Assembly: GCA_964638715.1 (NCBI GenBank)
Contig: CAZWZF010000020.1
Span: 6,653-70,652, forward strand
Source: an uncultured bacterium
GTDB taxonomy: Bacteria; Armatimonadota; Hebobacteria; CAIYQO01
Length of the DNA stretch: 64,000 nucleotides
Direction of reading: 5' to 3'
Shown here: positions 9,253 through 46,099 of the stretch, one piece after another
Layout: each line of letters starts with the position of its first letter
Numbering within the stretch: position 1 is the stretch's first letter
Translations under genes and position numbers: made by a program
Notes under the pieces: generated by a model
What the model saw: only the letters and a program-made list of their open reading frames with translations
What the model was told of the DNA's origin: nothing
The model's database searches: none

Positions 9253-9295
9253 GATTTTTTTTTATCCATGTTAATTTTCTCCCGTAACCAAGTCA

Positions 9296-9332: not shown

Positions 9333-9389
9333 TGCATTTTGTTAAGTTATAAAAAGCCGGTGGCCGTGTTTCCCTTCTTTTCGTTTAAC

Positions 9390-10187
9390 TTAGCAGGATG
9401 AAACCATGCTTTTTTGTTCCAAATGTCTTCCTGATCGTCCGCTTAATTCCAGGAACTCTATGAACTCCTGTACTTCCGGGAAATCGTTGGGTTTTTCTTT
9501 TGCTTCTGCTATCAGTCTGCTCAGATTTCCTTTGTTCACTAACAATTTGAATATCTCTTTCAATTCGTTGCGGGTTTTGCTGCTGACATTGTTTCTGCGC
9601 AACCCGACTCCGTTAAGTCCAATTAACCGCATCGGATTTCCCTCTGCGATTACAAATGGCGGCACATCGTGGGTAATTTTGCTGAGTCCGCCGACCATTG
9701 CCAGTCTGCCGATATGCACATTTTGATGTATGCCGGCCAGTCCACCGAGTACTACGCGATCATCTACCTGGCACCCGCCGCTGATTCCCACGTAATTTGT
9801 AATGTAAATGTTATTGCCAATTTTACAATTATGCCCAATATGGCTGTATGCCATCAGCATATTGTTATCGCCAATAACGGTCATGCAGCATTCGCCAACT
9901 GCGGAATGCACAGTAACGAACTCGCGAATGATGTTGTTGTCACCAATTATCACCCCGGATTTTTCGCCGTGATATTTTTTATCCTGGGGTGGTTCTCCCA
10001 ATACGGCGTGCGGGGATATGTGACAATCATTGCCGATTTTTGTGAGTCCTGAAACGATAGTGTGAGGCCCTATGACAGTACGGTTGCCGATATTAACATC
10101 GGGACCGATTACCGCGTAAGGGCCAATTTCAACGTCATCGCCCAGCACAGCACGCACATCGACTATTGCTGTGGAATGAATTTTCAA
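9390..10187 (-). CDS. lpxA: Acyl-ACP--UDP-N-acetylglucosamine O-acyltransferase LpxA
   Basis: Hexapeptide-repeat left-handed beta-helix protein (KIHSTAIVD...IGPYAVIGPDVNIGNRTVIGPHTIV...). The start is a TTG 5 nt downstream of the fabZ stop, with AAGGAAGGG 7 nt upstream. The track's ATG at 10250 lies inside fabZ. Confidence 0.9.
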   Translation of the reverse strand: MKIHSTAIVDVRAVLGDDVEIGPYAVIGPDVNIGNRTVIGPHTIVSGLTKIGNDCHISPHAVLGEPPQDKKYHGEKSGVIIGDNNIIREFVTVHSAVGECCMTVIGDNNMLMAYSHIGHNCKIGNNIYITNYVGISGGCQVDDRVVLGGLAGIHQNVHIGRLAMVGGLSKITHDVPPFVIAEGNPMRLIGLNGVGLRRNNVSSKTRNELKEIFKLLVNKGNLSRLIAEAKEKPNDFPEVQEFIEFLELSGRSGRHLEQKSMVSSC

Positions 10188-18173: not shown

Positions 18174-19418
18174 GTGGATATGAATAATAACGATATTAAA
18201 AGATTGCGCGAAATAGCGCAAAAGGTGAAACAAGTCAGCGAGTCTGACGAGAACCAGGCGAAAATTGCCAACTGGTACGCAATGGATGAAGGCAACGCAA
18301 CCCGTCCGAATATTGTAATCGAACTTGGCGGCATCCATGGCATTTTCGATAATTTCGTCACGCTGCAATGCGAAGATGAAATGGCGAGAGCGCAGGAACA
18401 CAGCATGCTGGCGACGTTATTCATTCATGATTATGTTAAAGATGACAACGCAATTTTGCCATATATCAATTTGGGTTGGAGTGTCAGCAGCACCGGCTAT
18501 GGAATTGAATCGCAAATCGACCGGTCAGACAATGACGGCAAAATGGGGGCATATCATATCGGTTCAGCATTAACAGATTTATCCCGCGAAGTGCCTTTGC
18601 TGAAAAAACGTGTATTCACCGTTGACCGTCAGAAAACCCTGGATAACAAGGCGGCACTGGAAGAAATTTATGACGGCATATTGAAAGTGCGTATGCGCGG
18701 CAACCCGTGGTGGACAATGGGATTAACCCAGGCCGCGGTATATCTAATTGGCGTGGAAGGCTTGATGATGCAGATGTATGATGATCCTGAAGGCCTGCAC
18801 GCGCTGATGTCTTTCCTGCGCGACGACTACATGGGAATGCTGGATTTTTACCAGAATGAAGGCCTGTTGAACCTGAACAATGAAGATGACTACATTGGCT
18901 CCGGCAGCCGCGGCTACACCCGCAGATTGCCGGTGAACACCGATGGCAAGATAACCACAAAAGATTTATGGTGCCTGATAGAATCCCAGGAAACCGTCAG
19001 TGTCAGCCCGGGAATGTATGAAGAGTTCGTATTCCAATACGAAAAACCGTTCGCAGAAAGATTTGGCAGCACATATTATGGCTGCTGCGAACCAGTGCAC
19101 ACACGCTGGCACCTGGTAAAAAAACTGCCAGGGCTGAAACGGGTATCGGTATCCCCCTGGTGCGATCAGGAACTGCTGGCGCAGGATATGCAGGGAATAG
19201 TATTCTCCCGCAAACCAAACCCGTCACTGATAAGCACAGACAAATTCGACGAAACCGCCATCCGCGAAGATTTGCAGAAAACCCTGCAAATAACGAAAAA
19301 GTATAATGTAGCCACCGAAATAGCCATGAAAGACGTCCACACCATCGCCAACGACCCCACCAGACTACCCCGCTGGGTGGAAATAGCAAGAGAAGAAGTG
19401 GCGAAGATATATGGGTAA
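18174..19418 (+). CDS. Hypothetical protein (about 410 aa, no family recognised)
   Basis: Long ORF with uniform codon usage, followed by a strong intrinsic terminator. The start is GTG at 18174 or ATG at 18180. I could not assign the sequence to a family by eye. Confidence 0.55.
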   Translation: MDMNNNDIKRLREIAQKVKQVSESDENQAKIANWYAMDEGNATRPNIVIELGGIHGIFDNFVTLQCEDEMARAQEHSMLATLFIHDYVKDDNAILPYINLGWSVSSTGYGIESQIDRSDNDGKMGAYHIGSALTDLSREVPLLKKRVFTVDRQKTLDNKAALEEIYDGILKVRMRGNPWWTMGLTQAAVYLIGVEGLMMQMYDDPEGLHALMSFLRDDYMGMLDFYQNEGLLNLNNEDDYIGSGSRGYTRRLPVNTDGKITTKDLWCLIESQETVSVSPGMYEEFVFQYEKPFAERFGSTYYGCCEPVHTRWHLVKKLPGLKRVSVSPWCDQELLAQDMQGIVFSRKPNPSLISTDKFDETAIREDLQKTLQITKKYNVATEIAMKDVHTIANDPTRLPRWVEIAREEVAKIYG

Positions 19419-19427
19419 ATAAATCGT

Positions 19428-19458
19428 AGGGTCAGGTTCTAAACCTGACCCATTTTTA
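19428..19458 (+). terminator. Rho-independent terminator after the 18174-19418 gene
   Basis: gggtcaggttctaaacctgaccc is a 9-bp GC-rich stem with a 4-nt loop, followed by atttttaac. Confidence 0.75.
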
Positions 19459-19486
19459 ACATTAAAACTTCGGTCTATAAAATAAT

Positions 19487-22120
19487 TTAATGATGATTTA
19501 TTAAATCATCAAATACATCAAGAGAATCAATTATTATTTTAACAGTTGAAATATCAAATTCTTCACAGTCTTCATTCTCATGTGTTGCATCATTTAAATA
19601 ACGCCATTCCTTCGATTGTCCATCAATACCAAGTATATTAGTAAAAGCAGAAAGTAATTCATCTTTTTTAGGGTGTGTGAACTCATTATTCGTTACCTTA
19701 GATTTAAGTTGCTCAATTTTGTTTCTTAATTCAGTTTTTGATTTAGGATCTTTAAACTTTAACTTTATAGTTCCATCCATTCGACGAGAAATTAATCTCC
19801 ATAATTCATTAGATATAAACTCCATAGCACGTCGACAATTTGTTAATGATTCTCTAATTTCTCTTCTACTAAATTTCTCAGTTGCTGCTACAATATAATT
19901 TCTCGGTGTTGTTTGATAGTCAATAATAAGTTGGTTATCACCAGTATGAGGAATAAAAGTAAAAGTCTTTGTTTTACAAAACTTGTCTACACCTAAAATA
20001 TTAGAGATATCTTTTAAGAACTCTTCACCATGACATGTTAATATTATTTGTGTATCAATGAATAAACCTTCACTAAATATCGTCTTACGAATTCCTTCAC
20101 GATGATCATCATCAATAGCATTAACAGGATCATCAAACACTAAAAGTGGGCACTTCTGATTTATATTTTTTGCTAATAATATTGATAATCCTAAACAACG
20201 TATATGACCTTCACTTAAAACATGCAACGCATCATACATTTGAGATGGATTACTATTGAAAGCGATTTCTATTTTACTTCCACTTTCGAGTGGTAAACGA
20301 ACATCTGCCAACAAATCTCCATTTTTATCTAATCTATTAAACCCATTATATAAAGTTTTAACCTTCTCTGCTAAATCAGCAATTAATAGAGAAGGCAAAG
20401 AATTTCTATAAATGTTTAATTTTTTTACAAACTCATTGTATGCTTTAGCAATTCTTTTATTAATATCAATTTTTATCTTTTCTGATTCAACTTCATCAAT
20501 CAAATCTTTGTTCTCTATATCAAATTGTGATATCTGTATACTTGCATTTTCTTTATCTTGTCTTTTACTTTCCTTTATTGCATTTATTTTGATTATTTCA
20601 TCTCGATATACTTTTATTCTATTTAATTCGTCAATATTATTTTTTCGTTTACTTACTAACACATCAATATTATTATCATAAATTTCTATCTGCTTAAGAA
20701 TTAACTCTATTTGTTGCCAAAACGAAACTCCATTTGTATGTTCTTGTTTATGTGTCATCCACCATTCCTCTGTAAAATCATTTTCTGAGTTTGGTATATC
20801 TTCAATATATAATTTACTTTCCATATGATCTTTATTAAAATCAATTACTAATTTCACCAATTTATATAATTCCTGTAACGATTTTTTCTGTATTTCCTTT
20901 TGATCTTTCAGATGCTGTTCAAGACTTGAAAGATACTCGAGATCTCTTAATCCTTTCTCTGCACATAAATAAGGATTTTGCGTTACTTTTTCTAATGGAG
21001 TTGAACACGCAGGACAAATATCTGGGTTGATAACATTTAATTCTTTTACAGATTGATACAGATTGCGAAAAGATATCCTATTTCGTTTTTCATCATATTC
21101 ATTTTCTAAATCATAAATTTGTTGTGTATTATTTTTAAGTAAAGCATCAATATCTGTCAATGATTTTATTGTTAGTCCTATTTTATTTTGTGGTACTGAT
21201 GTTGTTAAATTTTCAAGTTCCTGAATTCTTCCAGGATTTTTTAAAGTTCCCAGATAAATTTTCAATTCATCATACTTCATCTTTCCATTATCAAATTTAG
21301 AAGCAATCAACATTTCATCTTCTTCTATTTTTCTTAAATCTTTATCACATGATAAAAGAGTTCTCTCAAAAACATTTAATTCTTGTCTTTTCGAATTTAA
21401 CAATAATGCCTTTTGACCAGATAAATCAATGTGTCTCGAATCTAATTCTGATGAAAATCCAATTACAAACTCACTAAATGGTTCTAATCCAAATAAAGTA
21501 CTTATAAGTTTATTTTGTTGAGACGGTAATTTTGCTGCCATTCTAGAAAAATCATCTATTCTATTTTTTTCAACAAAACAAAATCTATATAAAGAATCAT
21601 TAGGAGAAATCAAGACAATTTCTTCATTTTCATTAAGTGCTTGTAACTCAGGTGACTTAAACTTCTTAGTTCGAGCATTTTCAAGATAATCATTTATTTC
21701 AAAGAAGCGTTTGACAGTAGCTTCTTCTACAGAACCCAACAGAGAATATTCAAGTGCCTCACAAAAACTGGATTTTCCAGAACCATTAGGGCCATATACA
21801 AGAACAAAGGATGCATCCAAATCAAAACTTTCTTTATTGGTAAAACCTCTAAAAGATTCAATATCAATTTTTTTTAATCTTTTGAAAGCAAACTCATTTG
21901 AATTATTATAATCAGATAGAGTTGTTATTTCTGGTTCTGTAAATGTAAACTCATTTTGCGCAATCTCTATAATTTTTTTTGAACGAAGAGAATGCGGTGT
22001 TCCAAGTGGAACAAGGGTGTTAAAATGTTTAAAAACGATATTGCCAATTCGCTTAGCATCATCTGAAACATCATTTTTATTAAGGTCTATTAAAAATCTT
22101 CTATATTCTTGAATTATCAT
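19487..22120 (-). CDS. Rad50/SbcC/RloC-like ABC ATPase with a coiled-coil CxxC zinc hook and a C-terminal extension of unknown function
   Basis: 877 aa with Walker A GPNGSGKSS (aa 109-117) and a long predicted coiled coil containing CPAC at aa 369-372, almost exactly midway to the ABC signature LSEGH (aa 635-639). Walker B LLVFDD (about aa 659-664), a D-loop and an H-loop TCHGEE follow. An about 100-aa N-terminal extension and an about 170-aa C-terminal domain have no recognisable motifs. The local GC is very low (about 30%). Confidence 0.75.
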   Translation of the reverse strand: MIIQEYRRFLIDLNKNDVSDDAKRIGNIVFKHFNTLVPLGTPHSLRSKKIIEIAQNEFTFTEPEITTLSDYNNSNEFAFKRLKKIDIESFRGFTNKESFDLDASFVLVYGPNGSGKSSFCEALEYSLLGSVEEATVKRFFEINDYLENARTKKFKSPELQALNENEEIVLISPNDSLYRFCFVEKNRIDDFSRMAAKLPSQQNKLISTLFGLEPFSEFVIGFSSELDSRHIDLSGQKALLLNSKRQELNVFERTLLSCDKDLRKIEEDEMLIASKFDNGKMKYDELKIYLGTLKNPGRIQELENLTTSVPQNKIGLTIKSLTDIDALLKNNTQQIYDLENEYDEKRNRISFRNLYQSVKELNVINPDICPACSTPLEKVTQNPYLCAEKGLRDLEYLSSLEQHLKDQKEIQKKSLQELYKLVKLVIDFNKDHMESKLYIEDIPNSENDFTEEWWMTHKQEHTNGVSFWQQIELILKQIEIYDNNIDVLVSKRKNNIDELNRIKVYRDEIIKINAIKESKRQDKENASIQISQFDIENKDLIDEVESEKIKIDINKRIAKAYNEFVKKLNIYRNSLPSLLIADLAEKVKTLYNGFNRLDKNGDLLADVRLPLESGSKIEIAFNSNPSQMYDALHVLSEGHIRCLGLSILLAKNINQKCPLLVFDDPVNAIDDDHREGIRKTIFSEGLFIDTQIILTCHGEEFLKDISNILGVDKFCKTKTFTFIPHTGDNQLIIDYQTTPRNYIVAATEKFSRREIRESLTNCRRAMEFISNELWRLISRRMDGTIKLKFKDPKSKTELRNKIEQLKSKVTNNEFTHPKKDELLSAFTNILGIDGQSKEWRYLNDATHENEDCEEFDISTVKIIIDSLDVFDDLINHH

Positions 22121-22168
22121 AGTTTCCTCATTAAACAGATTCCTATTTGATTGTTCTATAAAGTAACT

Positions 22169-23278
22169 TCAACCATCGCTGATGGTACTGGCTTTAGTAA
22201 GATATGCTTTTGCTTTACTTTCTGCAACTTTAGCTTTCTGTTCTAATGCTTTTGCGTTATTTGCGTCTTTAGCTATTTTTAATTTAAAATCAGCTACACT
22301 TGCGCATGGAGCGATTCGACTGAGAGTTTTTGGGTCTAATTCATTGAGTTCTAATATCATGGTATCTATTTCGTCCCTAAGAGATTGCATCATTACTTCC
22401 ATAGCAGTTTTCATTGCACAATCTGCAGCGTAGGAATAGGCTTTAACAGCGAATAGGTGTGAGTCACAATATGTTTCATATAGCTCACAGTATAATTTAT
22501 AAAGATCAGAATTCGAAACACAAAAAATTCTATTAGAACTCAAATTCACAAAAATAGCAGAAAGATTATCAAATGCTACGCAAAGGTTGTCAATAGCACT
22601 AGAATGAGAGTCCAAGTAGGCTTCGGTATATGGTTCAAAGTCTGCGGGATCTTTATAATGTGAAACTGTTTCATTATAGGTATCAACAGCGGATTGATCA
22701 TTACCATTGTCAAGAGCATTGGTAGCTTTTAGTATGGAATAACGATTATTTGCACGTTCGGTGTAAGGTTCAATTACTTTAAAAGCGGCATCATAGGTGT
22801 TTATAGCAATGTCAAATGCAATAGCGTCAGTATCCAATTTATTGGATGTGATGTAAAAACGACCATATATTATATCAAACTCTCGTCTTTGGTCAGAGCG
22901 AAATTCTTTAAACAAGGGAGAAAAAATCACAAATATAGTTCCAAGATTGGCACTCAAATTAAGCGCCAAGTTATTATACAAATATGTCGCTGTTGAAGGA
23001 CTAAAGAATCCAATCAAAAATGCTACTACGAATAAAAGTATTACCCAAGTTAAAACAACAAGAATTATTTTACCAAAAACAGCAGGACGCATCTGTTTTT
23101 TGAACACAAGTTTTATTGCAATTGGAAGATAAGATATAAGTGGTAAAATTACCTGTGCAGAAGTAAATAGACCAAAATAGTACCCTATAGGAACCCACCA
23201 CAATGCTGACCAACCTTGATGTATAATCATCAAGATAAGAAGTATACCTGTTAATATAAAAACTATTATTCTCCACAT
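22169..23278 (-). CDS. Four-TM membrane protein with an about 250-aa cytoplasmic domain, partner of the ATPase at 19487-22120
   Basis: 369 aa with four predicted TM helices in the first about 125 aa (IIVFILTGILLILMII; WWVPIGYYFGLFTSAQVILPLISYLPIAI; ILVVLTWVILLFVVAFLIGFF; GTIFVIFSPLF), then a soluble domain ending in a Lys/Ala-rich coiled coil. It is 48 nt upstream of the ATPase on the same strand, in the AT-rich island. Confidence 0.65.
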   Translation of the reverse strand: MWRIIVFILTGILLILMIIHQGWSALWWVPIGYYFGLFTSAQVILPLISYLPIAIKLVFKKQMRPAVFGKIILVVLTWVILLFVVAFLIGFFSPSTATYLYNNLALNLSANLGTIFVIFSPLFKEFRSDQRREFDIIYGRFYITSNKLDTDAIAFDIAINTYDAAFKVIEPYTERANNRYSILKATNALDNGNDQSAVDTYNETVSHYKDPADFEPYTEAYLDSHSSAIDNLCVAFDNLSAIFVNLSSNRIFCVSNSDLYKLYCELYETYCDSHLFAVKAYSYAADCAMKTAMEVMMQSLRDEIDTMILELNELDPKTLSRIAPCASVADFKLKIAKDANNAKALEQKAKVAESKAKAYLTKASTISDG

Positions 23279-23589
23279 ATTTCACTTCCATTTAAATTAA
23301 TTCTTATACGTTTTAATTCCTCTAAAATCAGAGATCTTCTATGAATACATCTTAGACATTTCACAATCCTTCATAAGTTTTATGAAATGTATATGAGTGC
23401 AAGTAGAATATCCTCATTTCAATAAACACATTATCTATGTGTTTACTACATTTGGTCAATACTAATTCAATACTTTTAACTATTATTTCTATAATAAAAC
23501 TCACTAATTTTATAGATAATAAAGACTTTATAAACTTCACTTCCTTATTTTAACGCAGCCCGGTTATCAAAATGTTGCTATTTATTTTG

Positions 23590-23670
23590 TTATTACACAG
23601 CGACTCACAGAGGAAATTTATTAACACCTCCGTGTATCTCTGTGTCTCCTCTGTGTATCTCTGTGTCACC
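23590..23670. repeat. Palindromic repeat unit, CACAGAG family (copy 1, about 80 bp), 5-prime flank region of the membrane-protein gene and 3-prime of the repeat-protein gene
   Basis: ttattacacagcgactcacagaggaaatttattaacacctccgtgtatctctgtgtctcctctgtgtatctctgtgtcacc shares its ends with 25760-25866 in the same orientation. Confidence 0.55.
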
Positions 23671-23693: not shown

Positions 23694-25676
23694 TCAATCC
23701 CACGCCAACTCCCCCTTCTCTACATCTACCCCTGACCCGCGCAGAATTGGTATTGGGGTTTTGTTTTGCTGGGTCCAGGTGCGGTTGTTGCCGTAATTCG
23801 CATTGGGGTAGGTATCATTGCCGTCAAGGTCGATAAAAAGGCCAACGGTGTTTATTTCGGTGCGAATGCCGGTGGGATTGGATATTACCGCCTGACCGAA
23901 GGAGCCGCCTTTGTAAATGTCGTTACCGCTTTTATCCACGAACAGCGCAATGCTGTTATTCAGCGCCTGCCCCATATTGCTGGCGCCTTCATAAATATCA
24001 TCACCCGACTCTTCAACGAACAGGCTGACGGAGAAATCGTGGGCGGCGCCAACGTTAACACAGTTTGTCGAGGTGTAGTGATCATTGCCGGTGCCATCCA
24101 CAAGGTAGCTGACGGCAAAATGAGCGGTGGCGGATTGGCCATACCAGACGCTGCGGTAATTGTCGTTGCCAGAACGGTCGTCTAATATGCCGATGCCGTA
24201 CCAATAACCCACTGCCTGGCTGAATACCCCGCCGAAATACGTGTCGTCACCCGCGCCATCCAGCAGCATCCCCACGCCGCCGGCGACGGAATGACCGTCA
24301 AGATAATCGCGGCGTTCCCCGGTTCCCGCACCCTGACACATGCTGGAGTTATGGGTTTTTGTTTGCGCACTGGGGTAAATAATGTCGGTGTCGTTGGCGG
24401 TATATTTATCATTTCCGGTCAGGTCATATAACAGACCAACCCCCATGGTGCGACCGCATCCCTGGCCGTTAACATAAGTTTCATAACTGTCCGACCCGCC
24501 GGTATCGGCGAGAATGCCAATGCCGAAATAACCATATCCCTGCGCGCCGGCAAGCGAAAAATACGTATCTTCGCCATCGCCGTAATCCGCCAGCAATCCG
24601 ACTCCGGCGATACCGCAACCCTGGCTGTAGCAACCCTTTGTCGTGTAGACATCCTTGCCGCCCTGGTCTACAAGAATCCCCCAACCCATTACCCCTGCGC
24701 CAAAGCACGGCAAAGTAGATGATGATTCGTAGCGGTCATTTCCACCGCCATCAATAATGATGCCAACCGGATATTGCGCGCCGCCGGTTGCCCCACCCGC
24801 CTGGTAAATGTCATCGCCGCCAGTATCGAAAATCAGCAGATTATGAGCGTTGGCAGTATATTTATCATTCCCACTGCCGGACAGACTTATCACACCAAGT
24901 TTTGTTTTGCAGGTAAAGTTGAACTGTTCCTTCACCGGGGTTTTCGCCAATTCATCATTAACCGCCTGCACTATCGTCATCATATCGTCATTGCCGGCAA
25001 ACATCAGCGACAAATCAAGGCTGCCTAAATTATCCATCTCCTTCAAACTATCGCCAATCTGGTCAGACTCGCTTCTTTCATACTTGCTGCCGGTTTTATC
25101 CTCGGGGTGGATTAGCGGGTCAATCAGCCGATTGTACAGCCAGACGCGGTCGCTTGCCGGTATCTTTCGCAGAGCCTGTTCGCGCCATTTCAAAGCATCC
25201 GCAGTGACAAACAACAATTCAGCCGCGAGTTTTTGCACCTGTGGCGGAACGTTTTTTGTTGATGGCACTTTTGCCCGCGGGTCAACTGCCAAAATCGCCG
25301 CCTTTAACGCGTCCGGCTTCGCCGCCATGGTGGTATATTTCACCAACGGTGTCGGCTCATTAAGACTGCGCCAGGTGGTGGTTCCCAGTATGCTGGCAGA
25401 GGTAACAAATAGCGGTTGCGGCGCGCCTTTTGCGCTCAGCATCTGCTCGCGCAGGTAACGCTCAAAAAACGGAATCCGCAGCGGATGCTGATACCACTGG
25501 TCAAAAAATGACAGTTTAAATGCAGTATTCCCCCGGCTCTTCACCGCTTCAGTATCAACCTTAAACCCATCCCGCGTCATGCTAACACCCGCCAACGCGG
25601 TATCTAACGCGTCCCCGGCAAACGCAAACTGCGCCATCATCACCAGCAAACAACAAAAAAACACCCGCTTTACCAT
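23694..25676 (-). CDS. Secreted repeat protein with about 11 beta-roll/beta-helix-like D-x-G-x-D-x-Y repeats
   Basis: 660 aa with a signal peptide (MVKRVFFCCLLVMMAQFAFAG). The C-terminal two-thirds is built from about 22-aa repeats with the cores DGGGNDRY, DQGGKDVY, DYGDGEDTY, DTGGSDSY, DLTGNDKY, DGAGDDTY, DRSGNDNY, DGTGNDHY, EESGDDIY, DKSGNDIY and DLDGNDTY. These resemble Ca-binding RTX/beta-roll nonapeptides but are not canonical. Confidence 0.7.
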   Translation of the reverse strand: MVKRVFFCCLLVMMAQFAFAGDALDTALAGVSMTRDGFKVDTEAVKSRGNTAFKLSFFDQWYQHPLRIPFFERYLREQMLSAKGAPQPLFVTSASILGTTTWRSLNEPTPLVKYTTMAAKPDALKAAILAVDPRAKVPSTKNVPPQVQKLAAELLFVTADALKWREQALRKIPASDRVWLYNRLIDPLIHPEDKTGSKYERSESDQIGDSLKEMDNLGSLDLSLMFAGNDDMMTIVQAVNDELAKTPVKEQFNFTCKTKLGVISLSGSGNDKYTANAHNLLIFDTGGDDIYQAGGATGGAQYPVGIIIDGGGNDRYESSSTLPCFGAGVMGWGILVDQGGKDVYTTKGCYSQGCGIAGVGLLADYGDGEDTYFSLAGAQGYGYFGIGILADTGGSDSYETYVNGQGCGRTMGVGLLYDLTGNDKYTANDTDIIYPSAQTKTHNSSMCQGAGTGERRDYLDGHSVAGGVGMLLDGAGDDTYFGGVFSQAVGYWYGIGILDDRSGNDNYRSVWYGQSATAHFAVSYLVDGTGNDHYTSTNCVNVGAAHDFSVSLFVEESGDDIYEGASNMGQALNNSIALFVDKSGNDIYKGGSFGQAVISNPTGIRTEINTVGLFIDLDGNDTYPNANYGNNRTWTQQNKTPIPILRGSGVDVEKGELAWD

Positions 25677-25759: not shown

Positions 25760-25866
25760 TTATTACACAGAGATTCACAGAGGAGACACAGAGTCTCACG
25801 GAGGAAAATTTATAAAAACACCTCCGTGTATCTCCGTGTCTCCTCTGTGAATCTCTGTGTAACACC
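25760..25866. repeat. Palindromic repeat unit, CACAGAG family (copy 2, about 107 bp)
   Basis: ttattacacagagattcacagaggagacacagagtctcacggaggaaaatttataaaaacacctccgtgtatctccgtgtctcctctgtgaatctctgtgtaacacc contains nested inverted repeats (cacagaggagacacagag / ctctgtgtctcctctgtg; cacggagg / cctccgtg). Together with copy 1 it flanks the 660-aa repeat-protein gene as direct repeats. Confidence 0.55.
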
Positions 25867-39906: not shown

Positions 39907-39908
39907 TT

Positions 39909-41339
39909 TTATTTCCTCTTTTTACCAACCGTTACCACTTTCTTCTCCGCCTTTATCCTCCCCAACAATACCTTCGCCGGTTCGTCGTTCGGGTCTTGTG
40001 GTACCAGTTCACCGCGAAAGGCTTTGGCGAGGATGGATTGCGTGAGTCGGTCAACATGGGTTTTTGCCTGTTTGTAACGCGCTTCTACCTGGTCGGAAAA
40101 GGCGAATAAAGTTGTGACACGACGAACTATTTCTTGTTGTTCTTCAATTGGTGGAAGATTAACTTGTAATTCACGAACACGTTGACAATTGAGAGCCTGT
40201 GGTCCTGACCCATTACCTTCTTCACGATTCAATTCATAGCGATGTTGGAACCAATACCAAAGATACTCAGAATTAATAATATCAAATTGTGGAATTATTG
40301 CAGCAATATTTTGATTAATTGTCGCATCTATTTTCAAGATAGCAGTTTGACCACGAGTCTTACCCTCACCAATCATCGCTAATAATACTGTTCCTTTTGG
40401 AAGAATGTGAACTGAAGTTTTTTGATATCCAATTTCAGTAATTTGCTCTCGGGTATTAGTAATTTCATTGTTACGTACTTCACCTGAACTGACCCACGGT
40501 ATTGAACCACCCCAATATGTTAAATCTTTTCGGGATGGCGTACTACCATTACTGACTATTCCTATATGCCCAATATTACAACATAACCATGACATAGGTA
40601 ATTCTTTTTCTATATAACTATCAATATTAAGTGGATAATTGTTAACAAATTCATTAATAACTTTCAGTTCTCGTCCAGATAATGCATCATTTGAAAACCA
40701 TAATTTGCTTACTTTTAATAAAAGTTCAGAGGCATCCTCTTTTTCCCCAACTTCTTCTCTCCAATCCTCAGTCAACCTTCCAGAACACGCGGCGACAAGG
40801 ACGGACTGACGAAAACGTTTCAGGATGGTTGGCACTTTATCTATTTGGGCGCGACAGGCATCCACCCGCGCAAGTAGTTGCTCAAGTTTTGCGACTATTC
40901 TGTGTTGTTCTGGAAGAGGAGCTAAAGGAACATCAAGATTCCAAAACAATTCTGGATCAACATGTGGTATACCTGTACCCCGAGTATTTGAATTGATAGT
41001 ATCAAATTGTGATGTCAAGAAAAATCGTAAATAATCAGTATCAACTTCCTTTGGTGTCAATGCCATTATTGTAGACCCTATTGCACCCACTTGTCCTTTC
41101 CCGATCCAACCACTTCTTGCACCGTCCCAAACAACATAAATATCATTCTCATCAGTTAATCGTGATGATGATATCTCTGCATATTGCCTTGCAACACCTT
41201 TCTCAATAGCAAATATGTCAAGATAAGGAACGAAACCTTCTACAATCGTATCACGTTGTTGTTTAGGTTTTTTACCTTTCTTTTTTATGACAATTTCATC
41301 AAGACGAGTGGAAACCCACCCCTTCGGCAATTCACTCAT
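39909..41339 (-). CDS. hsdS: Type I restriction-modification system specificity subunit HsdS
   Basis: Two target-recognition domains separated by conserved repeats (LPPLPEQHRIVAKLEQLLARVDA... and LPPIEEQQEIVRRV...LTQSILAKAFRGELVPQDPNDEPA). The start was moved to the internal ATG (MSELPKGWVS) that overlaps the hsdM stop by 8 nt. The track ORF extends 135 nt into hsdM. Confidence 0.9.
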   Translation of the reverse strand: MSELPKGWVSTRLDEIVIKKKGKKPKQQRDTIVEGFVPYLDIFAIEKGVARQYAEISSSRLTDENDIYVVWDGARSGWIGKGQVGAIGSTIMALTPKEVDTDYLRFFLTSQFDTINSNTRGTGIPHVDPELFWNLDVPLAPLPEQHRIVAKLEQLLARVDACRAQIDKVPTILKRFRQSVLVAACSGRLTEDWREEVGEKEDASELLLKVSKLWFSNDALSGRELKVINEFVNNYPLNIDSYIEKELPMSWLCCNIGHIGIVSNGSTPSRKDLTYWGGSIPWVSSGEVRNNEITNTREQITEIGYQKTSVHILPKGTVLLAMIGEGKTRGQTAILKIDATINQNIAAIIPQFDIINSEYLWYWFQHRYELNREEGNGSGPQALNCQRVRELQVNLPPIEEQQEIVRRVTTLFAFSDQVEARYKQAKTHVDRLTQSILAKAFRGELVPQDPNDEPAKVLLGRIKAEKKVVTVGKKRK

Positions 41340-42750
41340 CAAAACTTCCCCCGTTGGAGTCGATAAGCAGCAATATCTCCTGCAAATCAATAACGGCGGC
41401 TTCCAATGCGGTGATGGCTTCGGCAGCCAGGTCTTGCGGTTCCGGCAAGGTGTCGGGGTCGTCGAGGGAGTCATCTTTCAGCCAGGTTATATCGAGTTTG
41501 TAATCCCGCGCCTTGATGTCGCTGATATGGAAACGGCGAAAACGGCATTCCTCGCCAAGGTCGGATCGCGGACTGGTACCGTTGGGGTTTGCGCCGTAAA
41601 CAGCCTCGAAATCGTCAAAATGCGCGGCAATTAACGGACGGTCTTTCTTGGTAATTCCAGGCACATTGCTGCGGGCATCGTAAATCCAGGTGTATTCGGT
41701 AGGCATCCCCTTTTGAAAGAAGATAACATTTGCCTTTACCCCCTGGCTGTATGGGGTAAAGGTGCCGCGCGGCAGCCGCAATACCGTATGCAGGTTGCAG
41801 TCCTGCATCAGCAATTCAAATACTTCACCCGCCTTGCCTTCAAACAGGCAGTTGTCCGGCAGCACCATTGCCGCCCGCCCGCCAGGTTTAAGGGTAGTCA
41901 CAACATGCTGGATAAAGTTCAACTGTTTATTGCTTGTCTCAATTGTAAAATCATCCCGCGCCGGCGCCTGATTCGCTCCCTTGGTACCAAAAGGCGGGTT
42001 GGTGAGAATGCAATCAAAACGTTCTGGGCCAGCCGGTTCGTAAATGGTATCGCCGAGTTTTATATGCGGTTCCACGCCATGCAGGTAAAGATTCATCAAC
42101 GCCAGCCGCCGGGGACGATGCACCAAATCCTGACCATAATAGGTTTCAAACTTTATATGACCGGCAATCTTTCTGTCCATTACTCCGCCGGTAATTTCTT
42201 TCAACCATTCATAAGCACAAACCAGAAAACCGCCGGTACCGCACGCCGGGTCGCAAATGGTGAAGCCGGGTGATACGCGCGGGTCGGGCTTCATTACTCG
42301 TACAATAGACTGAATCAATACCCGCGGGGTGAAATATTGCCCTGCTCCCTTTTTCCCCTCGCTGGCTGCCCTCTCCAGCAATCCCTCAAACGCCTGCCCC
42401 TTCACGTCAACATCCATGGCCGACCATTCTTCCTCGTCTATCATGGCTATAACGCGTTTCAGGTTAACCGGGTTGTTAAACCGCGGCATAGACTGGGCAA
42501 ATATATCGCCAAGTATCCCCGGTTCATCGCGCAATACCCGCAATGAATCGCCAAAATGGTCCATCAACTCCTGTCCCGACTTGCCGCAAAGCGTCTCCCA
42601 GTCATACCCGTCAGGAAGTTCCACATTACGTTCATGCGCCATCTTTAAAAACAGCAGGTAAGTAAGCTGCTCAATATAATCGCCATAATCAATGCCATCA
42701 TGCCGCAGCGTATGGCAAAATCCCCAAAGTTTATTTACAATGTCAGACAT
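41332..42750 (-). CDS. hsdM: Type I restriction-modification system DNA methyltransferase subunit HsdM (N6-adenine)
   Basis: N-terminal HsdM_N helix bundle, AdoMet motif I (DPACGTGGFL) and catalytic motif IV NPPFG in ILTNPPFGTKG. Confidence 0.9.
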   Translation of the reverse strand: MSDIVNKLWGFCHTLRHDGIDYGDYIEQLTYLLFLKMAHERNVELPDGYDWETLCGKSGQELMDHFGDSLRVLRDEPGILGDIFAQSMPRFNNPVNLKRVIAMIDEEEWSAMDVDVKGQAFEGLLERAASEGKKGAGQYFTPRVLIQSIVRVMKPDPRVSPGFTICDPACGTGGFLVCAYEWLKEITGGVMDRKIAGHIKFETYYGQDLVHRPRRLALMNLYLHGVEPHIKLGDTIYEPAGPERFDCILTNPPFGTKGANQAPARDDFTIETSNKQLNFIQHVVTTLKPGGRAAMVLPDNCLFEGKAGEVFELLMQDCNLHTVLRLPRGTFTPYSQGVKANVIFFQKGMPTEYTWIYDARSNVPGITKKDRPLIAAHFDDFEAVYGANPNGTSPRSDLGEECRFRRFHISDIKARDYKLDITWLKDDSLDDPDTLPEPQDLAAEAITALEAAVIDLQEILLLIDSNGGSFDE

Positions 42751-42868
42751 ATAATGTTTTCCTATATATTTGCGAATGATAACAACAACAATTCAATATT
42801 CCCCATGGAATTAATGTTAATTTAAAAAATTACAATAAAACTATTGATTTTAATATTTATAAATAATA

Positions 42869-43387
42869 TCAAACCTGACCAGTAATTTTTATAAACGTAT
42901 TAAATAGTGCTATTTTTGTTTTATTTTTTGTATCATATGTACAACTGCTAAACACTGTATCTCCTAATGACTTCATGCCATATTTAGGATAAGCAATGCT
43001 AAAACTCCATCTGCTGTTTTTTGGAAATACAGTTAGTGTGTAATCATCTATAACTAAATAATCATTCCCTTTAGCAGACATTTTCCAAACACGATTTAGC
43101 CACCGTTTACGTCTATTGGCAATATTTCTAAGTGCTCTTTCCCTATTTTCTGCATCAACATAATCATCAGACATTTTTTGAGCGCATACACTACCTACTC
43201 CTATCACATCAGGATAATCTTCATGTTTCATGTAATGAATATATCTTAGACCCTCATTTTCACACATCTCGCAAAATTGATAAGGAATAGCTTCTCCTTC
43301 TTCTAAATTTTCTCCAAGATCATGAACATCAACACACTCCCAACCCTTATGAGGTATATTAGGTTTATCCCATAATCCACTCATCAT
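42869..43387 (-). CDS. Hypothetical Cys/His-rich protein embedded between hsdR and hsdM
   Basis: 172 aa, AT-rich, with WECVDVH...FCEMCENEGLRYIHYMKHEDYPD...SVCAQKM (CxxC...HxxxH...C). It lies 18 nt downstream of hsdR and 118 nt upstream of hsdM on the same strand. No family recognised. It is possibly a zinc-ribbon/HNH-like fold. Confidence 0.5.
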   Translation of the reverse strand: MMSGLWDKPNIPHKGWECVDVHDLGENLEEGEAIPYQFCEMCENEGLRYIHYMKHEDYPDVIGVGSVCAQKMSDDYVDAENRERALRNIANRRKRWLNRVWKMSAKGNDYLVIDDYTLTVFPKNSRWSFSIAYPKYGMKSLGDTVFSSCTYDTKNKTKIALFNTFIKITGQV

Positions 43388-43405
43388 TTACCTCCATTAT
43401 TCTTT

Positions 43406-46099
43406 TCATACCGCCACAGCCTCATTAAGCTCTTCAATTAACCATTGCAGAACATCCGGCTGAAATACCCGTTGTGCCCGACCCAGCCCGCCGTGCTGCT
43501 CGAATACCGGAATAAGGTTAAGGTCATTTATATCTATGGTGAGATTTTCTACCAGGTGCTCGCGAATGTAACCAAGCCATGCCTGCTGTTCACTGGAGAA
43601 AGTTTTGCCTGTTGTCACCTGCTGCATAGCTTTATCAACGCGCTGTTCGGCGGTTAACAGCGGTTCTTCTTCGCGGGCGGCGTGTTTTACCATTGATATT
43701 ATATCTGCCAGCGCGATATGATACACTTCGCTGTGCGCGTCGCGCAATGCCGATTCCGGGAATCCCTGCATACCTAATTTTATTCTCAAATCATCCAGCA
43801 CTTCCGGCCGCCAACCGGCAGGACGTTTTAATAGAACCTGCAACCCGTCTATTTCATCGCGTTTTTCATTCACAAAACGGCTGAATGCAGTCAGGTAATC
43901 CTCGGGTTTAAGGGTGTTATCGCCAACGCGGAAAATGCGCTCTGACACGACGTTATCCTGTATATCGTTGGCAATCCAAAATGACCGTGGCGCGCGTTCG
44001 TAATTCACCAATAATTTCTGAAAATCAGAATTTCGCAGAAGATTCATTGTATCAATAAAGTTTCTATCCAGTCTTCCCGGCAATTCATTGGCAAATAGTT
44101 CCATATTGCCGTCGGATATTCCCCACTGCGCAAATGCGATACGGGCATTCCCGCTCATATCGCGGCTAATCCGGCGTAAGCGTTTTTGCAATACCCGGAT
44201 ATGATATTCGCGCTCAACATTCTGGTAAATATTCTCAATTACCTGAACAATACCAAGCGGGTCTTTAGGCGGCAGCGTAATTTGAAAATCGGTGGCATTA
44301 CGGAAATATTCAATGAGAGTACCATCAAAACAATCAAAAACGGTAAAGTTTGTCTTGTTAATATCAGTACAAAGCCGCGTACCACGACCAAGCATCTGTG
44401 TCCAAAGAATGCGCGACTTAACCGGACGCAGGAAAACGATAAACTCCAATGCCGGAATATCAACACCGGTGGAAAGCATATCAACGGTGACAACAATTTT
44501 TGGATTAGGTCGGTTGCGAAATTCGCGAATACGCTGCAAAGGACGGTCAACAGTGGGACTGCCGGTGATTTTCTGTACAAATTCATCACCGCGCTTGAAA
44601 ATATCGCGGCACTGCTGCACCAATTGGTCGGCATGCGAGGTATGCGGCAAATCGTTAGCCGCAAAAATCAGCATTTTGGGAAAACGCCCGGTTTCTTCCT
44701 CATGCCTCAGCGCATAACCAGCGATTTCCTGCATAATGCGCCGATTGCTGTCAGGTGCGGTAATGCGTGATTCGATATCAGAGGTATCAAATTGCCGTTC
44801 ATCTTCCAACCTGTCCTGAAACAAAGTGCCGGTTTCAGGATTAACAACCCCAACATTATCACCCTCGCGCAGAAAAACACCGTTCATGCGGACATCAGAA
44901 TGTATGCGCACAGCATCATAATCAACAAGATAACCATCTGCTATCGCTTCTTCAGTGGTATAGCGGTAAACAGGTTCGCCAAACAGGTTTACCGTATGAC
45001 TTGCCGGTGTCGCGGTAAGCCCAATCTTCAGCGCGTCAAAATGATCCATCACCTGCCGCCATATACCGAGTTCCTGCGAGGTATAACCACGGTGACACTC
45101 ATCAGCAATTATCACATCAAATGCAGATATTGGAATATCAAGAATATTTGCGTCTTCTTCTAAATCCGGGTCATTGGCATTTTGAGCGAATGAGTATTGA
45201 GGGCCATAAAGATTAATCGCCATCCGCTGAATAGTTGAAACGTATACGAAGGTTTGAGATTCTTTAGGCGAAGTCAGATAACTACCGGGCAAAACTTTCG
45301 GGTCGAAGGTTTGATTATCAGAATCTTCCAAATCTTCACGGCGAAATTGCTGATGAAAAACTTCGTATTCCTGATTGAACTTATTGCCATGTTGAGTTTG
45401 AAAAGAAGCAAATGCCATGACAGCCTGTGCCGCCAATGCGCGACGGTCTACCAGGAAAAGGATTCTCTTTGCAACTGTGGATTTCAACAAACGATATATC
45501 TGTGCAACCGTGGTGAATGTTTTCCCGGTACCGGTCGCCATAGCAACAAGAAAAGAACGCTGGCCACGGGTAATGCCATCTTCAACAGCTTCAATTGCTT
45601 CACGCTGATAATTTCGTATGCCTTGAATATTAACAGGATTATTGGCGAACCAATCATTTCGCGTTGAATGTGAAAACATCTCTTCGAGTGCGTGAATATT
45701 GTGATAATTTGCTAATCGCCGCGACATGGCACGGTCGTCGCGTATATCAATAAACCAGATAGTTTCGCCATTGGTAGAGTAGAGGAAGGGAACGCCGTAT
45801 TCACCCCATTTTCCTGCGTTGTTATGAATACCGCGGGAATAACGTTTTGCCTGTTCGAGAACATTATAAGGGTCTAATGCAACCTTTTTTGCTTCTATAA
45901 TCCCAAGAATTTTGCCATTTACAAAAAGTGCATAATCAGCCGGTCCGCTATCTGTCGGATATTCTTCAACAGCAACACCATGAAGACACGAACAATCCAG
46001 ACCATCCTGATACCGGATGATCTTCCATGGTGGGGTCATAGATTTCAAGCGGGCATCTATTCGCTTTTTTCTGGTTAGTTTCTCCGACTCATCAAACAT
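43406..46099 (-). CDS. hsdR: Type I restriction enzyme endonuclease/helicase subunit HsdR
   Basis: 897 aa with an N-terminal PD-(D/E)xK region (...YALFVNGKILGIIEAKK...), SF2 helicase motifs (MATGTGKTFT, DECHRG, TATP) and a C-terminal HsdR helical domain. Confidence 0.9.
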   Translation of the reverse strand: MFDESEKLTRKKRIDARLKSMTPPWKIIRYQDGLDCSCLHGVAVEEYPTDSGPADYALFVNGKILGIIEAKKVALDPYNVLEQAKRYSRGIHNNAGKWGEYGVPFLYSTNGETIWFIDIRDDRAMSRRLANYHNIHALEEMFSHSTRNDWFANNPVNIQGIRNYQREAIEAVEDGITRGQRSFLVAMATGTGKTFTTVAQIYRLLKSTVAKRILFLVDRRALAAQAVMAFASFQTQHGNKFNQEYEVFHQQFRREDLEDSDNQTFDPKVLPGSYLTSPKESQTFVYVSTIQRMAINLYGPQYSFAQNANDPDLEEDANILDIPISAFDVIIADECHRGYTSQELGIWRQVMDHFDALKIGLTATPASHTVNLFGEPVYRYTTEEAIADGYLVDYDAVRIHSDVRMNGVFLREGDNVGVVNPETGTLFQDRLEDERQFDTSDIESRITAPDSNRRIMQEIAGYALRHEEETGRFPKMLIFAANDLPHTSHADQLVQQCRDIFKRGDEFVQKITGSPTVDRPLQRIREFRNRPNPKIVVTVDMLSTGVDIPALEFIVFLRPVKSRILWTQMLGRGTRLCTDINKTNFTVFDCFDGTLIEYFRNATDFQITLPPKDPLGIVQVIENIYQNVEREYHIRVLQKRLRRISRDMSGNARIAFAQWGISDGNMELFANELPGRLDRNFIDTMNLLRNSDFQKLLVNYERAPRSFWIANDIQDNVVSERIFRVGDNTLKPEDYLTAFSRFVNEKRDEIDGLQVLLKRPAGWRPEVLDDLRIKLGMQGFPESALRDAHSEVYHIALADIISMVKHAAREEEPLLTAEQRVDKAMQQVTTGKTFSSEQQAWLGYIREHLVENLTIDINDLNLIPVFEQHGGLGRAQRVFQPDVLQWLIEELNEAVAV

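What the first reader, a model, noticed from the sequence alone, without database searches (positions are those of the whole stretch)
19430..23560. AT-rich island encoding a 4-TM membrane protein plus a Rad50/RloC-like zinc-hook ABC ATPase: candidate uncharacterised two-gene defence/abortive-infection system
An about 4.1-kb block at roughly 30% GC, against 47-50% for its neighbours, sits between a terminator-ended housekeeping-like gene and a secreted-protein gene. It carries a two-gene minus-strand operon.
- Gene 1 (22169-23278) has four N-terminal TM helices and an about 250-aa cytoplasmic domain.
- Gene 2 (19487-22120) is an 877-aa ABC ATPase of the SMC/Rad50 type. Its features in order are: Walker A GPNGSGKSS at about aa 110, CPAC (aa 369-372) at the geometric midpoint of an about 500-aa coiled-coil insert (as in Rad50/SbcC zinc hooks and in the tRNA anticodon nuclease RloC), signature LSEGH, Walker B LLVFDD, H-loop TCHGEE, then an about 170-aa C-terminal domain with no motif I can name. 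There is also an about 100-aa N-terminal extension.
- ATPase sensors paired with membrane effectors are the logic of several antiphage systems. I do not recognise this particular pairing (hooked Rad50-like ATPase with C-terminal extension plus S-4TM-like protein) as any named system (not Septu, Gabija, PARIS, Lamassu, Wadjet, Kiwa or Zorya by domain content).
Basis: partly seen in the sequence, partly recalled or inferred. Interest (0 to 1): 0.85.

Follow-up and report, generated by a model that had tools for sequence, protein, structure and literature searches.

The report
RloC-like ATPase–RNase defence gene, unrelated neighbour
The large gene is a horizontally acquired, self-contained sensor-plus-RNase protein built like the bacterial anticodon nuclease RloC (Rad50-type ATPase, zinc hook, C-terminal HEPN RNase), and the membrane-protein gene next to it is not a conserved partner, so the proposed new two-gene defence system is not supported.

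Summary
The sequence features are real. There is a low-GC islet of 28–34% GC (window average 44%), with two same-strand genes 48 nt apart.

The interpretation does not hold.
- **The ATPase family is large and usually stands alone.** It has full-length relatives in at least 306 species, 31 plasmids and 21 E. coli genomes. In about 15–19% of loci it sits inside R-M or BREX operons, as RloC and PrrC do.
- **The membrane protein is not a conserved partner.** It belongs to a separate modular family (162 relatives). No relative was found in any of 84 ATPase loci. None of its own ~37 surveyed loci holds such an ATPase.

The ATPase is not a member of the curated RloC family. It scores below Pfam AAA_13's cut-off and only weakly on PADLOC PDC-S06. 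It also has an extra 80-aa N-terminal domain.

Verdict: an untested RloC-like variant, probably an abortive-infection RNase. It is moderately interesting.

The parts
19487..22120 (-). RloC-like ABC ATPase / zinc hook / HEPN protein, 877 aa (whole gene including stop)
   Evidence: ORF. More than 600 full-length relatives. AlphaFold model with mean pLDDT 84. Foldseek top hits are Rad50 and SMC proteins.
21881..22120 (-). Family-specific N-terminal helical domain (aa 1-80), absent from RloC
   Evidence: Helices 2-15, 20-31, 33-36 and 42-60 in the model. E5 is conserved in 116/118 and R46 in 118/118 relatives. No Pfam match.
21416..21880 (-). ATPase head, N-lobe (aa 81-235), with Walker A GPNGSGKSS at aa 110-118 (nt 21767-21793)
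   Evidence: Pfam SMC_N at 72 bits. K116 is invariant.
20339..21415 (-). Coiled-coil insert (aa 236-594) with the zinc-hook loop at aa 365-382; CPAC is aa 369-372 (nt 21005-21016)
   Evidence: Secondary structure of the model. C369, C372 and T374 are conserved in 118/118.
19988..20338 (-). ATPase head, C-lobe (aa 595-711): signature LSEGH 635-639, Walker B LLVFDD 659-664, H-loop TCHGEE 695-700
19490..19987 (-). C-terminal HEPN RNase domain (aa 712-877). Predicted catalytic residues are R799/E803 (nt 19712-19726) and the WRYLNDATH motif ending in H847 (nt 19580-19606). R763/E767 are also invariant.
22121..22168 (-). 48-nt spacer with GAGGA five nt upstream of the ATPase start codon (separated by AACT). 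No terminator-like site was found in it.
22169..23278 (-). Neighbouring 369-aa membrane protein: a 4-TM module (aa 1-147, nt 22838-23278) plus an Ala/Asp-rich helical domain (aa 150-369, nt 22172-22831). It lies in the same islet but is not a conserved partner.
   Evidence: ORF. Hydropathy. 162 relatives with the two modules occurring separately. Contexts lack the ATPase.
19429..19451 (+). G+C-rich hairpin flanked by A-rich and T-rich tracts, between the convergent 414-aa gene and the ATPase gene. It could terminate both.
39909..46099 (-). Type I R-M genes of the same genome, about 17 kb away (hsdR 43406-46099, hsdM 41332-42750, hsdS 39909-41474). This is a possible in-trans partner by analogy with RloC. 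It is context, not a demonstrated part.
   Evidence: tblastn. Pfam HSDR_N/ResIII/EcoEI_R_C, N6_Mtase/HsdM_N and Methylase_S.

Best explanation
Gene 19487-22120(-) encodes a single-polypeptide sensor-plus-effector protein of the RloC type.

**What is shown**
- It has a Rad50/SMC-class ABC ATPase head split by an antiparallel coiled coil, with a CPAC zinc hook at the apex.
- The head is followed by a C-terminal HEPN fold that carries an RloC-like Arg-X3-Glu...His set.
- A family-specific 80-aa helical domain precedes the head.
- The gene is foreign to this genome. Its family is patchily distributed and mobile, and it is recurrently inserted in R-M and BREX operons.

**What is inferred, by analogy with GkaRloC and AbaRloC (PMC2610378, PMC3458546, PMC3874168)**
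- The ATPase and hook hold the HEPN RNase off.
- A DNA-linked signal, such as DNA ends or loss of function of a restriction system during phage attack, drives an ATP-dependent switch.
- The switch unleashes the RNase on tRNA anticodon loops or another essential RNA. This stops translation and aborts the infection.

**The neighbouring gene**
- The upstream 4-TM gene was probably acquired in the same AT-rich islet and may be co-transcribed. It is not a conserved component of the system.
For: **Architecture.** All ABC motifs, the hook cysteines and H847 are 100% conserved in 118 relatives. R799 is conserved in 111/118, and position 803 is Glu or Asp in 110/118. The full-length model has pLDDT 84 with CPAC in the apex loop. 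Foldseek's top hits are Rad50, cohesin/condensin and LmuB.

**RloC likeness.**
- The full-length profile-profile comparison against a bona fide RloC alignment gives 94% probability, E 1.5e-7. It pairs RloC's MRNILE...RYINRGSH with ELRNLxEQL...WRYLNKGTH.
- The resulting spacing, E803-X43-H847 with Thr before His, fits RloC's published Arg-X3-Glu-X36-52-His pattern with Ser often before His.
- The landmarks are colinear with GkaRloC K44/C291/D572/R692/E696/H737.

**Context.**
- R-M or BREX genes are adjacent in 13/84 loci and lie within 4 ORFs in 16/84.
- Examples are hsdM-hsdS-X-hsdR (L030), hsdS overlapping X by 4 nt (L095), MmeI-X (L003, L097), Res-X (L067/68) and PglZ-BrxL-X (L062, L026).
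- The gene stands alone at prophage or island sites in Morganella and E. coli.
- It occurs on 31 plasmids, 21 of them conjugative, and on 10 IMG/VR contigs.

**Foreign origin.** GC3 is 15.5% against 53-60% in neighbouring genes.

**Pairing not conserved.**
Against: - No biochemical or phage data exist for any member.
- The sequence link of the HEPN domain to RloC is weak on its own. Domain-only hhalign gives P 0.008 and probability 5%, with only the His motif aligned confidently. The 94% figure therefore rests largely on the Walker B/H-loop segment.
- Pairwise BLAST to RloC is not significant.
- Family members score 24-32 bits on Pfam AAA_13, whose cut-off is 36. They score 35-43 bits on PADLOC PDC-S06, where true RloC scores 845.
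- A second, fully invariant Arg-X3-Glu (R763/E767) exists. Which pair is catalytic is unresolved.
- Seven of 118 members lack R799.
- The RNA target and the trigger are pure analogy.
- Tight spacing and a shared islet mean a local functional link to the TM protein cannot be excluded.
Confidence: 0.68

Rival explanations
1. One reading: a two-gene defence system. The hooked ATPase senses infection and activates the upstream 4-TM protein as a membrane-disrupting effector.
For: The genes share a strand, lie 48 nt apart and have no terminator-like site between them. Both have foreign low GC in one islet. The 4-TM module is a modular family fused to variable C-terminal domains, a pattern seen in some conflict-system proteins.
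Against: - None of 84 other ATPase loci encodes a relative of the TM protein. The upstream slot is instead variable or empty.
- None of about 37 loci encoding TM-family members holds this ATPase or an RloC.
- The ATPase keeps an intact effector domain of its own.
- The TM protein has no PADLOC or Pfam match.
- The two genes differ in GC3, 24% against 15.5%.
Confidence: 0.07
2. A Lamassu-like or other SMC-type DNA-sensing system. The protein acts as an LmuB-type DNA-end sensor, and the C-terminal HEPN-fold domain is non-catalytic (a regulatory or partner-binding module). The effector would be supplied in trans.
For: The best PADLOC matches are LmuB models at 77-92 bits covering head and coiled coil. 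Lamassu LmuB structures are among the Foldseek hits. Some family members are followed by SbcD/SbcC-like genes with a 4-nt overlap. HEPN domains without activity are known (PMC3710099).
Against: No LmuA or LmuC-type gene is adjacent here or in most loci, where the gene stands alone. The scores are far below what a true family member gives on its own model. The His, Arg and Glu residues expected of an active HEPN are conserved.
Confidence: 0.12
3. A diverged housekeeping DNA-repair ATPase (SbcC/RecN/RecF-like) with an unrelated membrane-protein neighbour.
For: Pfam SMC_N, weak RecF/SMC/Rad50 NCBIfam hits to the Walker A region, and Rad50 as the top structural hit.
Against: The distribution is patchy, with 306 of about 185,000 species found by pattern scan and 21 of 5,426 E. 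coli genomes. The gene is located on plasmids, in prophages and in R-M operons. Its composition is foreign. It has a HEPN domain and no Mre11/SbcD partner here.
Confidence: 0.03

Closest known systems
RloC (wobble-nucleotide-excising anticodon nuclease; Pfam PF13166/AAA_13; PADLOC candidate PDC-S06). The reference used here is the E. coli APEC O1 P2-prophage protein, L094:45933-48149(-).
   Same: - Single polypeptide with the same domain order: ABC ATPase head, coiled coil with a CxxC zinc hook, then a C-terminal HEPN nuclease.
- It has the Arg-X3-Glu-X36-52-[ST]-His pattern and the motif [WY]-R-Y-[LI]-N-x-G-[ST]-H.
- Its size, 877 aa, is within RloC's 658-897 aa range.
- It is mostly stand-alone, is R-M/BREX-linked in a minority of loci, and occurs at prophage sites.
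   Different: - It scores below the curated cut-off of AAA_13 and only weakly on PDC-S06 models. Pairwise BLAST is not significant.
- It has an extra conserved 80-aa N-terminal domain.
- It has about 35-40 extra residues N-terminal to the RN..E helix, carrying a second invariant R-X3-E (R763/E767).
- Its head is closer to SMC_N/LmuB profiles than RloC's head is.
- No activity has been tested.
PrrC (tRNA-Lys anticodon nuclease embedded in the type Ic R-M locus EcoprrI)
   Same: It is an ABC ATPase followed by a HEPN anticodon-nuclease domain. Some family members sit in the hsdM-hsdS-X-hsdR position (L030), exactly like prrC.
   Different: PrrC has no coiled coil or zinc hook, is 341-416 aa, and is always R-M linked. 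The PADLOC PrrC model hits RloC but not this family.
Lamassu LmuB (SMC-like ATPase of the LmuA/B/(C) systems)
   Same: The best PADLOC profile match covers head and coiled coil. LmuB structures appear among the Foldseek hits. It is a Rad50/SMC-class head with a coiled coil.
   Different: Lamassu needs a separate LmuA effector, often with LmuC, and none is adjacent. LmuB has no fused HEPN domain. The scores indicate a relative, not a member.
Other ABC-HEPN families catalogued in PMC3710099 (APECO1_4465 group; ERFG_01251 group; the 'HEPN/RES-NTD1' domain occasionally fused to ABC ATPases)
   Same: An ABC ATPase fused to a C-terminal HEPN domain, found in prophage, R-M and Pgl/BREX neighbourhoods. 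A small all-alpha N-terminal domain is described for some.
   Different: The ERFG_01251 or KPK_1764 sequences could not be obtained, so identity with either group is untested. ERFG_01251 is described with a 240-aa alpha+beta NTD, which this family lacks.

Membership tests
RloC | ABC ATPase motifs (Walker A, signature, Walker B/D-loop, H-loop) | tested here: met
   GPNGSGKSS 110-118, LSEGH 635-639, LLVFDD 659-664 and TCHGEE 695-700. K116, SEG and DD are conserved in 118/118, and H697 in 107/118.
RloC | Coiled-coil insert in the ATPase with a CxxC zinc hook at its apex | tested here: met
   CPAC 369-372 is invariant. In the AlphaFold model it lies in the loop between helical arms 236-364 and 383-594. 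Zinc binding itself was not tested.
RloC | C-terminal anticodon-nuclease (HEPN) domain with Arg-X3-Glu-X36-52-His, Ser often preceding His (PMC2610378) | tested here: met
RloC | Sequence-family membership (Pfam PF13166 gathering score; PADLOC PDC-S06 models) | tested here: not met
   AAA_13 gives no hit for the window protein. Relatives score 24-32 bits against a cut-off of 36. PDC-S06 scores are 35-43 bits, against 845 for a true RloC.
RloC | DNA-dependent, ATP-driven activation of tRNA anticodon cleavage with wobble-nucleotide excision | not testable with these tools
   This needs biochemistry. Only the conservation of candidate catalytic residues is shown.
PrrC | Short ABC ATPase without a coiled coil, with obligatory linkage to a type Ic R-M locus | tested here: not met
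   A 359-aa coiled-coil insert is present. Most loci are not R-M linked. There is no hit to the PADLOC PrrC model.
Lamassu | LmuB SMC-like ATPase | tested here: inconclusive
   PDLC03859 scores 77-92 bits over nearly the whole profile. This is homologous but weak for a member.
Lamassu | Adjacent LmuA effector gene (and LmuC in type II) | tested here: not met
   The neighbours here are a 4-TM protein with no PADLOC hit and a convergent unrelated gene. Most family members have no conserved neighbour.
   0 of 84 ATPase loci has a TM-protein relative. 0 of about 37 TM-family loci has the ATPase or an RloC.

The most novel reading that the evidence does not exclude
The family may not be a diverged RloC. 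It could be an independent fusion of an SMC/LmuB-type hooked ATPase with a HEPN RNase, plus a dedicated 80-aa N-terminal sensor domain. That domain would read the state of neighbouring R-M or BREX machinery, or detect a phage anti-restriction factor. This would be a second, convergent 'guard of restriction' design. In this genome it might additionally have recruited a 4-TM protein as a local accessory.
Probability: 0.12. Interest if true: 0.7.

Novelty: new variant of a known kind. Interest (0 to 1): 0.45.

Why it matters
ABC-HEPN anticodon nucleases such as PrrC and RloC are the classic example of a second-line defence that fires when DNA restriction is compromised. Only those two families have been studied, and no structure exists for either.

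This family has three features that make it worth testing.
- It is widespread. It occurs in at least 306 species across more than ten phyla, on conjugative plasmids, in prophages, and in E. coli, Klebsiella and Morganella.
- It is annotated only as 'AAA family ATPase'.
- It escapes the curated RloC/PrrC models in Pfam and PADLOC, so current defence-system annotation would probably miss it.

The family is recurrently placed directly after hsdS, MmeI-type enzymes, type III Res and BrxL. Together with its extra N-terminal domain, this makes it a tractable case for asking how such proteins sense the failure of restriction.

For the genome scan itself, the result is a caution. A tight two-gene arrangement in an AT-rich islet is not evidence of a two-gene system.

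Tried and rejected
- **Direct family scans of the C-terminal and N-terminal domains.** Pfam and PADLOC gave nothing meaningful.
- **PDB sequence searches.** The full-length and HEPN-domain profiles returned only Rad50/SMC Walker A hits, or noise. No PrrC or RloC structure is available.
- **afdb50 Foldseek.** The library was unavailable, so E. coli PrrC could not be used as a structural reference.
- **HEPN-only profile-profile comparisons with RloC.** These were weak. I therefore do not claim statistically significant HEPN-to-HEPN sequence homology.
- **'ORFan' status of the membrane protein.** I first inferred this from the word-indexed search, which returned 1 hit. I rejected it after exhaustive phmmer found 162 relatives.
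- **Island borders.** I found no tRNA, no flanking direct repeats and no integrase.
- **Promoter-like matches in the islet.** The count equals the chance expectation (26 against 26.1), so I made no promoter claim.
- **Identity with the ERFG_01251 and HEPN/RES-NTD1 groups of PMC3710099.** The sequences were not retrievable. The ABC ATPase classification paper PMC7544218 is not held.
- **DARNA/PD-T7-3 and HepS.** I checked both and rejected them because their architecture is different.
- **Accession-number literature search for E. coli members.** It found nothing.

Full report
**1. Observation**

The window contains two same-strand ORFs: 22169-23278(-) of 369 aa and 19487-22120(-) of 877 aa. They sit in a block of 25-35% GC between flanks of 45-55%.
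- Gene-level GC is 34.3% and 28.0%. GC3 is 24% and 15.5%, against 53-60% for neighbouring genes and 43.8% GC for the whole window.
- The spacer is 48 nt, with GAGGA five nt upstream of the ATPase start codon.
- A strong hairpin at 19429-19451 separates the ATPase gene from the convergent 414-aa gene.
The Walker A lysine is K116, not K115.
- A stop-free run of 369 codons at this composition has a probability of about 1e-12.
- Hydropathy shows four hydrophobic segments within residues 1-122 of the upstream protein.
- There is no tRNA, integrase or flanking repeat.

**2. What the ATPase is**

Family scans:
- Pfam gives SMC_N (72 bits) and AAA_21.
- PADLOC's best hits are LmuB models, MADS3 and DndD, all modest.
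- NCBIfam gives only sub-threshold RecF/SMC/Rad50 Walker A hits.

A search of 5.8 billion proteins found more than 600 relatives. The best 120 are almost all 865-910 aa, about 40% identical over 99-100% of the query, and annotated at most as 'AAA family ATPase'. Conservation runs through the whole length:
- the N-terminal 80 residues (R46 invariant);
- K116, C369/C372, SEG 636-638 and D663/D664, all in 118 of 118;
- a C-terminal domain with invariant R763, E767, W774, N843 and H847.

A pattern scan of one genome per species found 306 encoded relatives, and the 80 best cover more than ten phyla: Proteobacteria, Campylobacterota, Desulfobacterota, Nitrospirota, Bacillota, Verrucomicrobiota, Kiritimatiellia, Spirochaetota, Cyanobacteria/Melainabacteria, Bdellovibrionota, Cloacimonadota and Bacteroidota. 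The family is also present in:
- 21 of 5,426 complete E. coli genomes;
- 31 plasmids, 21 of them conjugative;
- 10 IMG/VR contigs;
- no deposited phage genome.

**3. The C-terminal domain is a HEPN domain**

- the HEPN toxins 8xdj and 7ae2;
- 1wwp, 1ufb, HI0074, ST0689 and sacsin HEPN.

The full-length model, built on 70 sequences, has pLDDT 84. It shows, in order:
- a helical N-domain (2-60);
- the head N-lobe;
- helical arms 236-364 and 383-594, joined by the loop that holds CPAC;
- the head C-lobe;
- the HEPN helices (740-875).

Foldseek places the head and arms with Rad50 first, then cohesin/condensin, Lamassu LmuB, JetC and MukB. The architecture is therefore N-domain, then Rad50/SMC-type head with zinc hook, then HEPN.

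**4. Comparison with RloC**

RloC is defined in PMC2610378 by:
- ABC motifs;
- a coiled-coil/CxxC insert;
- a C-terminal Arg-X3-Glu-X36-52-His triad, with Ser often before His;
- a size of 658-897 aa;
- only occasional R-M linkage (8 of 72).

As a reference I located the E. coli APEC O1 P2-prophage protein. It is a full-length PF13166 member at 374 bits. Its relatives are named 'wobble nucleotide-excising tRNase' by several sources. It scores 845 bits on PADLOC PDC-S06 and also hits the PrrC model. Its sequence shows CPFC, MRNILE and YRYINRGSH.

Profile-profile comparison of the two families gives 94% probability, E 1.5e-7, from Walker B to the HEPN histidine. It pairs MRNILE with ELRNLxEQL (R799, E803) and RYINRGSH with WRYLNKGTH (H847). 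The window protein's spacing, E803-X43-H847 with T846 before the histidine, fits the RloC definition. After subtracting about 72 N-terminal residues, the landmarks are colinear with GkaRloC K44/C291/D572/R692/E696/H737.

The limits of this evidence are as follows.
- With the ATPase part removed, hhalign finds only the His motif with confidence (P 0.008, probability 5%). Relaxed and global alignments still pair the W, DG, RN..E and RYxN.G[ST]H motifs in order.
- Pairwise BLAST is not significant.
- Family members score 24-32 bits on AAA_13, below its 36-bit cut-off and only over the ATPase and coiled coil. They score 35-43 bits on the long PDC-S06 sub-models.
- A second, fully invariant R763-X3-E767 lies one helix earlier. 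Which pair acts with H847 is open.

I therefore call the family RloC-like in architecture and motifs, and not a member of the curated RloC family.

**5. Genomic context of the ATPase family**

In 84 non-redundant loci no neighbour is conserved throughout. Many members stand alone with upstream gaps of 300-430 nt:
- Klebsiella, next to an Mrr-like gene;
- Morganella, between icd and a prophage integrase;
- Cellvibrio;
- E. coli, at the ssrA prophage site, in a CP4-like island and beside IS2.

A sizeable minority sit directly after restriction genes:
- hsdM-hsdS-X-hsdR in an Akkermansiaceae MAG (L030);
- hsdR-hsdM-hsdS-X (L036/37, L056, L069);
- type III Res-X (L012, L067, L068);
- PglZ-BrxL-X, followed in L062 by SbcD- and SbcC-like genes and in L026 by a truncated SbcD-like ORF.

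Counting only the R-M/BREX types for which I had references, 13 of 84 are immediately adjacent and 16 of 84 lie within four ORFs.

The four closest relatives of the window protein (48-57% identity) follow an MmeI-type enzyme (P0002, P0004), overlap hsdS by 4 nt (P0003), or follow an HNH protein next to a TIR gene (P0006).

These are the associations described for RloC-type ABC-HEPN proteins: R-M operons, RhuM, Pgl and prophages (PMC3710099). The window itself carries a complete type I R-M operon about 17 kb away. For RloC this has been discussed as possible in-trans coupling.

**6. The membrane protein**

It has no Pfam, PADLOC or NCBIfam match. The word-indexed search found only itself. Exhaustive phmmer against 1.84 billion representatives changed that picture: 162 relatives, 94 of them at E of 1e-10 or better. 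The protein is modular.
- The 4-TM module (aa 5-147) occurs alone in proteins of 143-170 aa.
- The same module occurs fused to Sel1 repeats or to other C-terminal domains.
- The Ala/Asp-rich helical C-domain (aa 153-365) also occurs behind other membrane anchors.

Contexts of the closest full-length relative (P0240, 41% identity), of P0241, of a C-domain-only protein and of 35 metagenomic TM-module loci contain small unknown ORFs. None has this ATPase or an RloC. No TM-family member is found on viral contigs. Conversely, no ORF in the 84 ATPase loci resembles the membrane protein (best E 0.07).

The pairing is unique to this genome. It appears in two assemblies with identical synteny.

**7. 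Mechanism**

What is shown:
- domain composition;
- conservation of the ATPase, hook and HEPN residues;
- mobility;
- restriction linkage.

What is inferred, from RloC biochemistry:
- the hooked ATPase keeps the HEPN RNase silent;
- a DNA-linked cue, such as DNA ends or a disabled restriction complex, triggers one ATP-dependent switch;
- the RNase then cuts tRNA anticodon loops, or another essential RNA, and aborts infection.

The N-domain has no counterpart in RloC. It is a candidate regulatory or partner-docking module, and this is speculation. It might correspond to the all-alpha 'HEPN/RES-NTD1' domain noted as occasionally fused to ABC ATPases. I could not test that.

**8. Rivals**
- **The two-gene model.** It keeps a small probability, because co-transcription is plausible.
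- **A Lamassu-like reading.** It is favoured by the LmuB profile scores, but no LmuA or LmuC is present and the HEPN catalytic residues are conserved.
- **A housekeeping repair role.** It is contradicted by the distribution and composition.

**9. Novelty and verdict**

ABC-HEPN anticodon nucleases are a known kind, and several such families were catalogued in 2013. I found no paper naming or testing this family, and current curated models do not capture it.

I rate it a new variant of a known kind, of moderate interest (0.45). It is a good candidate for experimental validation as a single-gene defence. It is not the categorically new two-gene sensor and membrane-effector system that was proposed.

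Noticed in passing
window 37785-46099 (minus strand): A complete type I R-M operon with extra genes interleaved: hsdR 43406-46099, ORF172 42869-43387 (no match), hsdM 41332-42750, hsdS 39909-41474, ORF199 39307-39906 (no match) and ORF487 37785-39248. ORF487 matches the PADLOC candidate PDC-M36A (E 3.5e-19).
   Followed up: partly
window 23627-23668 and 25766-25859: Tandem 21-nt units (CCTC[CT]GTGTATCTCTGTGTC) occur in both intergenic regions flanking the 660-aa ORF 23694-25676. Five copies of the 13-nt core are present where none is expected by chance. Function unknown.
   Followed up: partly
L026, L029, L062, L067 (about 8637-9875); L062 9881-13570: In one subclade the RloC-like gene is followed, with a 4-nt overlap, by an SbcD-like phosphoesterase. 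In L062 a 1229-aa SbcC-like ATPase then follows, downstream of PglZ-BrxL. This may be a three-gene module.
   Followed up: partly
L079, L082-L087 (about 4839-5891): A Pseudomonas/Methylovorus subclade has a 350-aa DUF3800 gene immediately upstream, overlapping the ATPase ORF as called. A 249-aa 5-TM protein lies convergent downstream.
   Followed up: no
L095 7119-7910; contigs of P0006 and P0007 (no DNA held): The closest relatives of the window ATPase are each followed by an unannotated ORF of 263-274 aa. The window has none, and whether these ORFs are related to each other could not be checked.
   Followed up: no
window 22169-23278 and P0240-P0388: The 4-TM module defines an unannotated modular membrane-protein family with no Pfam model. 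It occurs stand-alone at 143-170 aa, fused to Sel1 repeats, or fused to an Ala-rich helical domain that also occurs behind other TM anchors. It is found mostly in soil and peat metagenomes.
   Followed up: partly
(method): The word-indexed homology search reported one hit for the membrane protein, whereas exhaustive phmmer found 162. 'No homologues' from the indexed search alone would have been a wrong conclusion.
   Followed up: yes
window 23694-25676 and 18174-19418: Both genes flanking the islet (660 aa with a signal-peptide-like N-terminus, and 414 aa) have no Pfam match. Further flanks encode PSCyt2/PSD1/DUF1501 and FGE-sulfatase proteins, which suggests a host in the Planctomycetota-Verrucomicrobiota group.
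   Followed up: no
L094 45933-48149 (E. coli APEC O1, NC_008563 925932-928148): A bona fide RloC (PF13166, 374 bits) sits in the P2-like prophage hotspot between the replication endonuclease and portal genes. PADLOC's candidate 'PDC-S06' is evidently this RloC family.
   Followed up: yes
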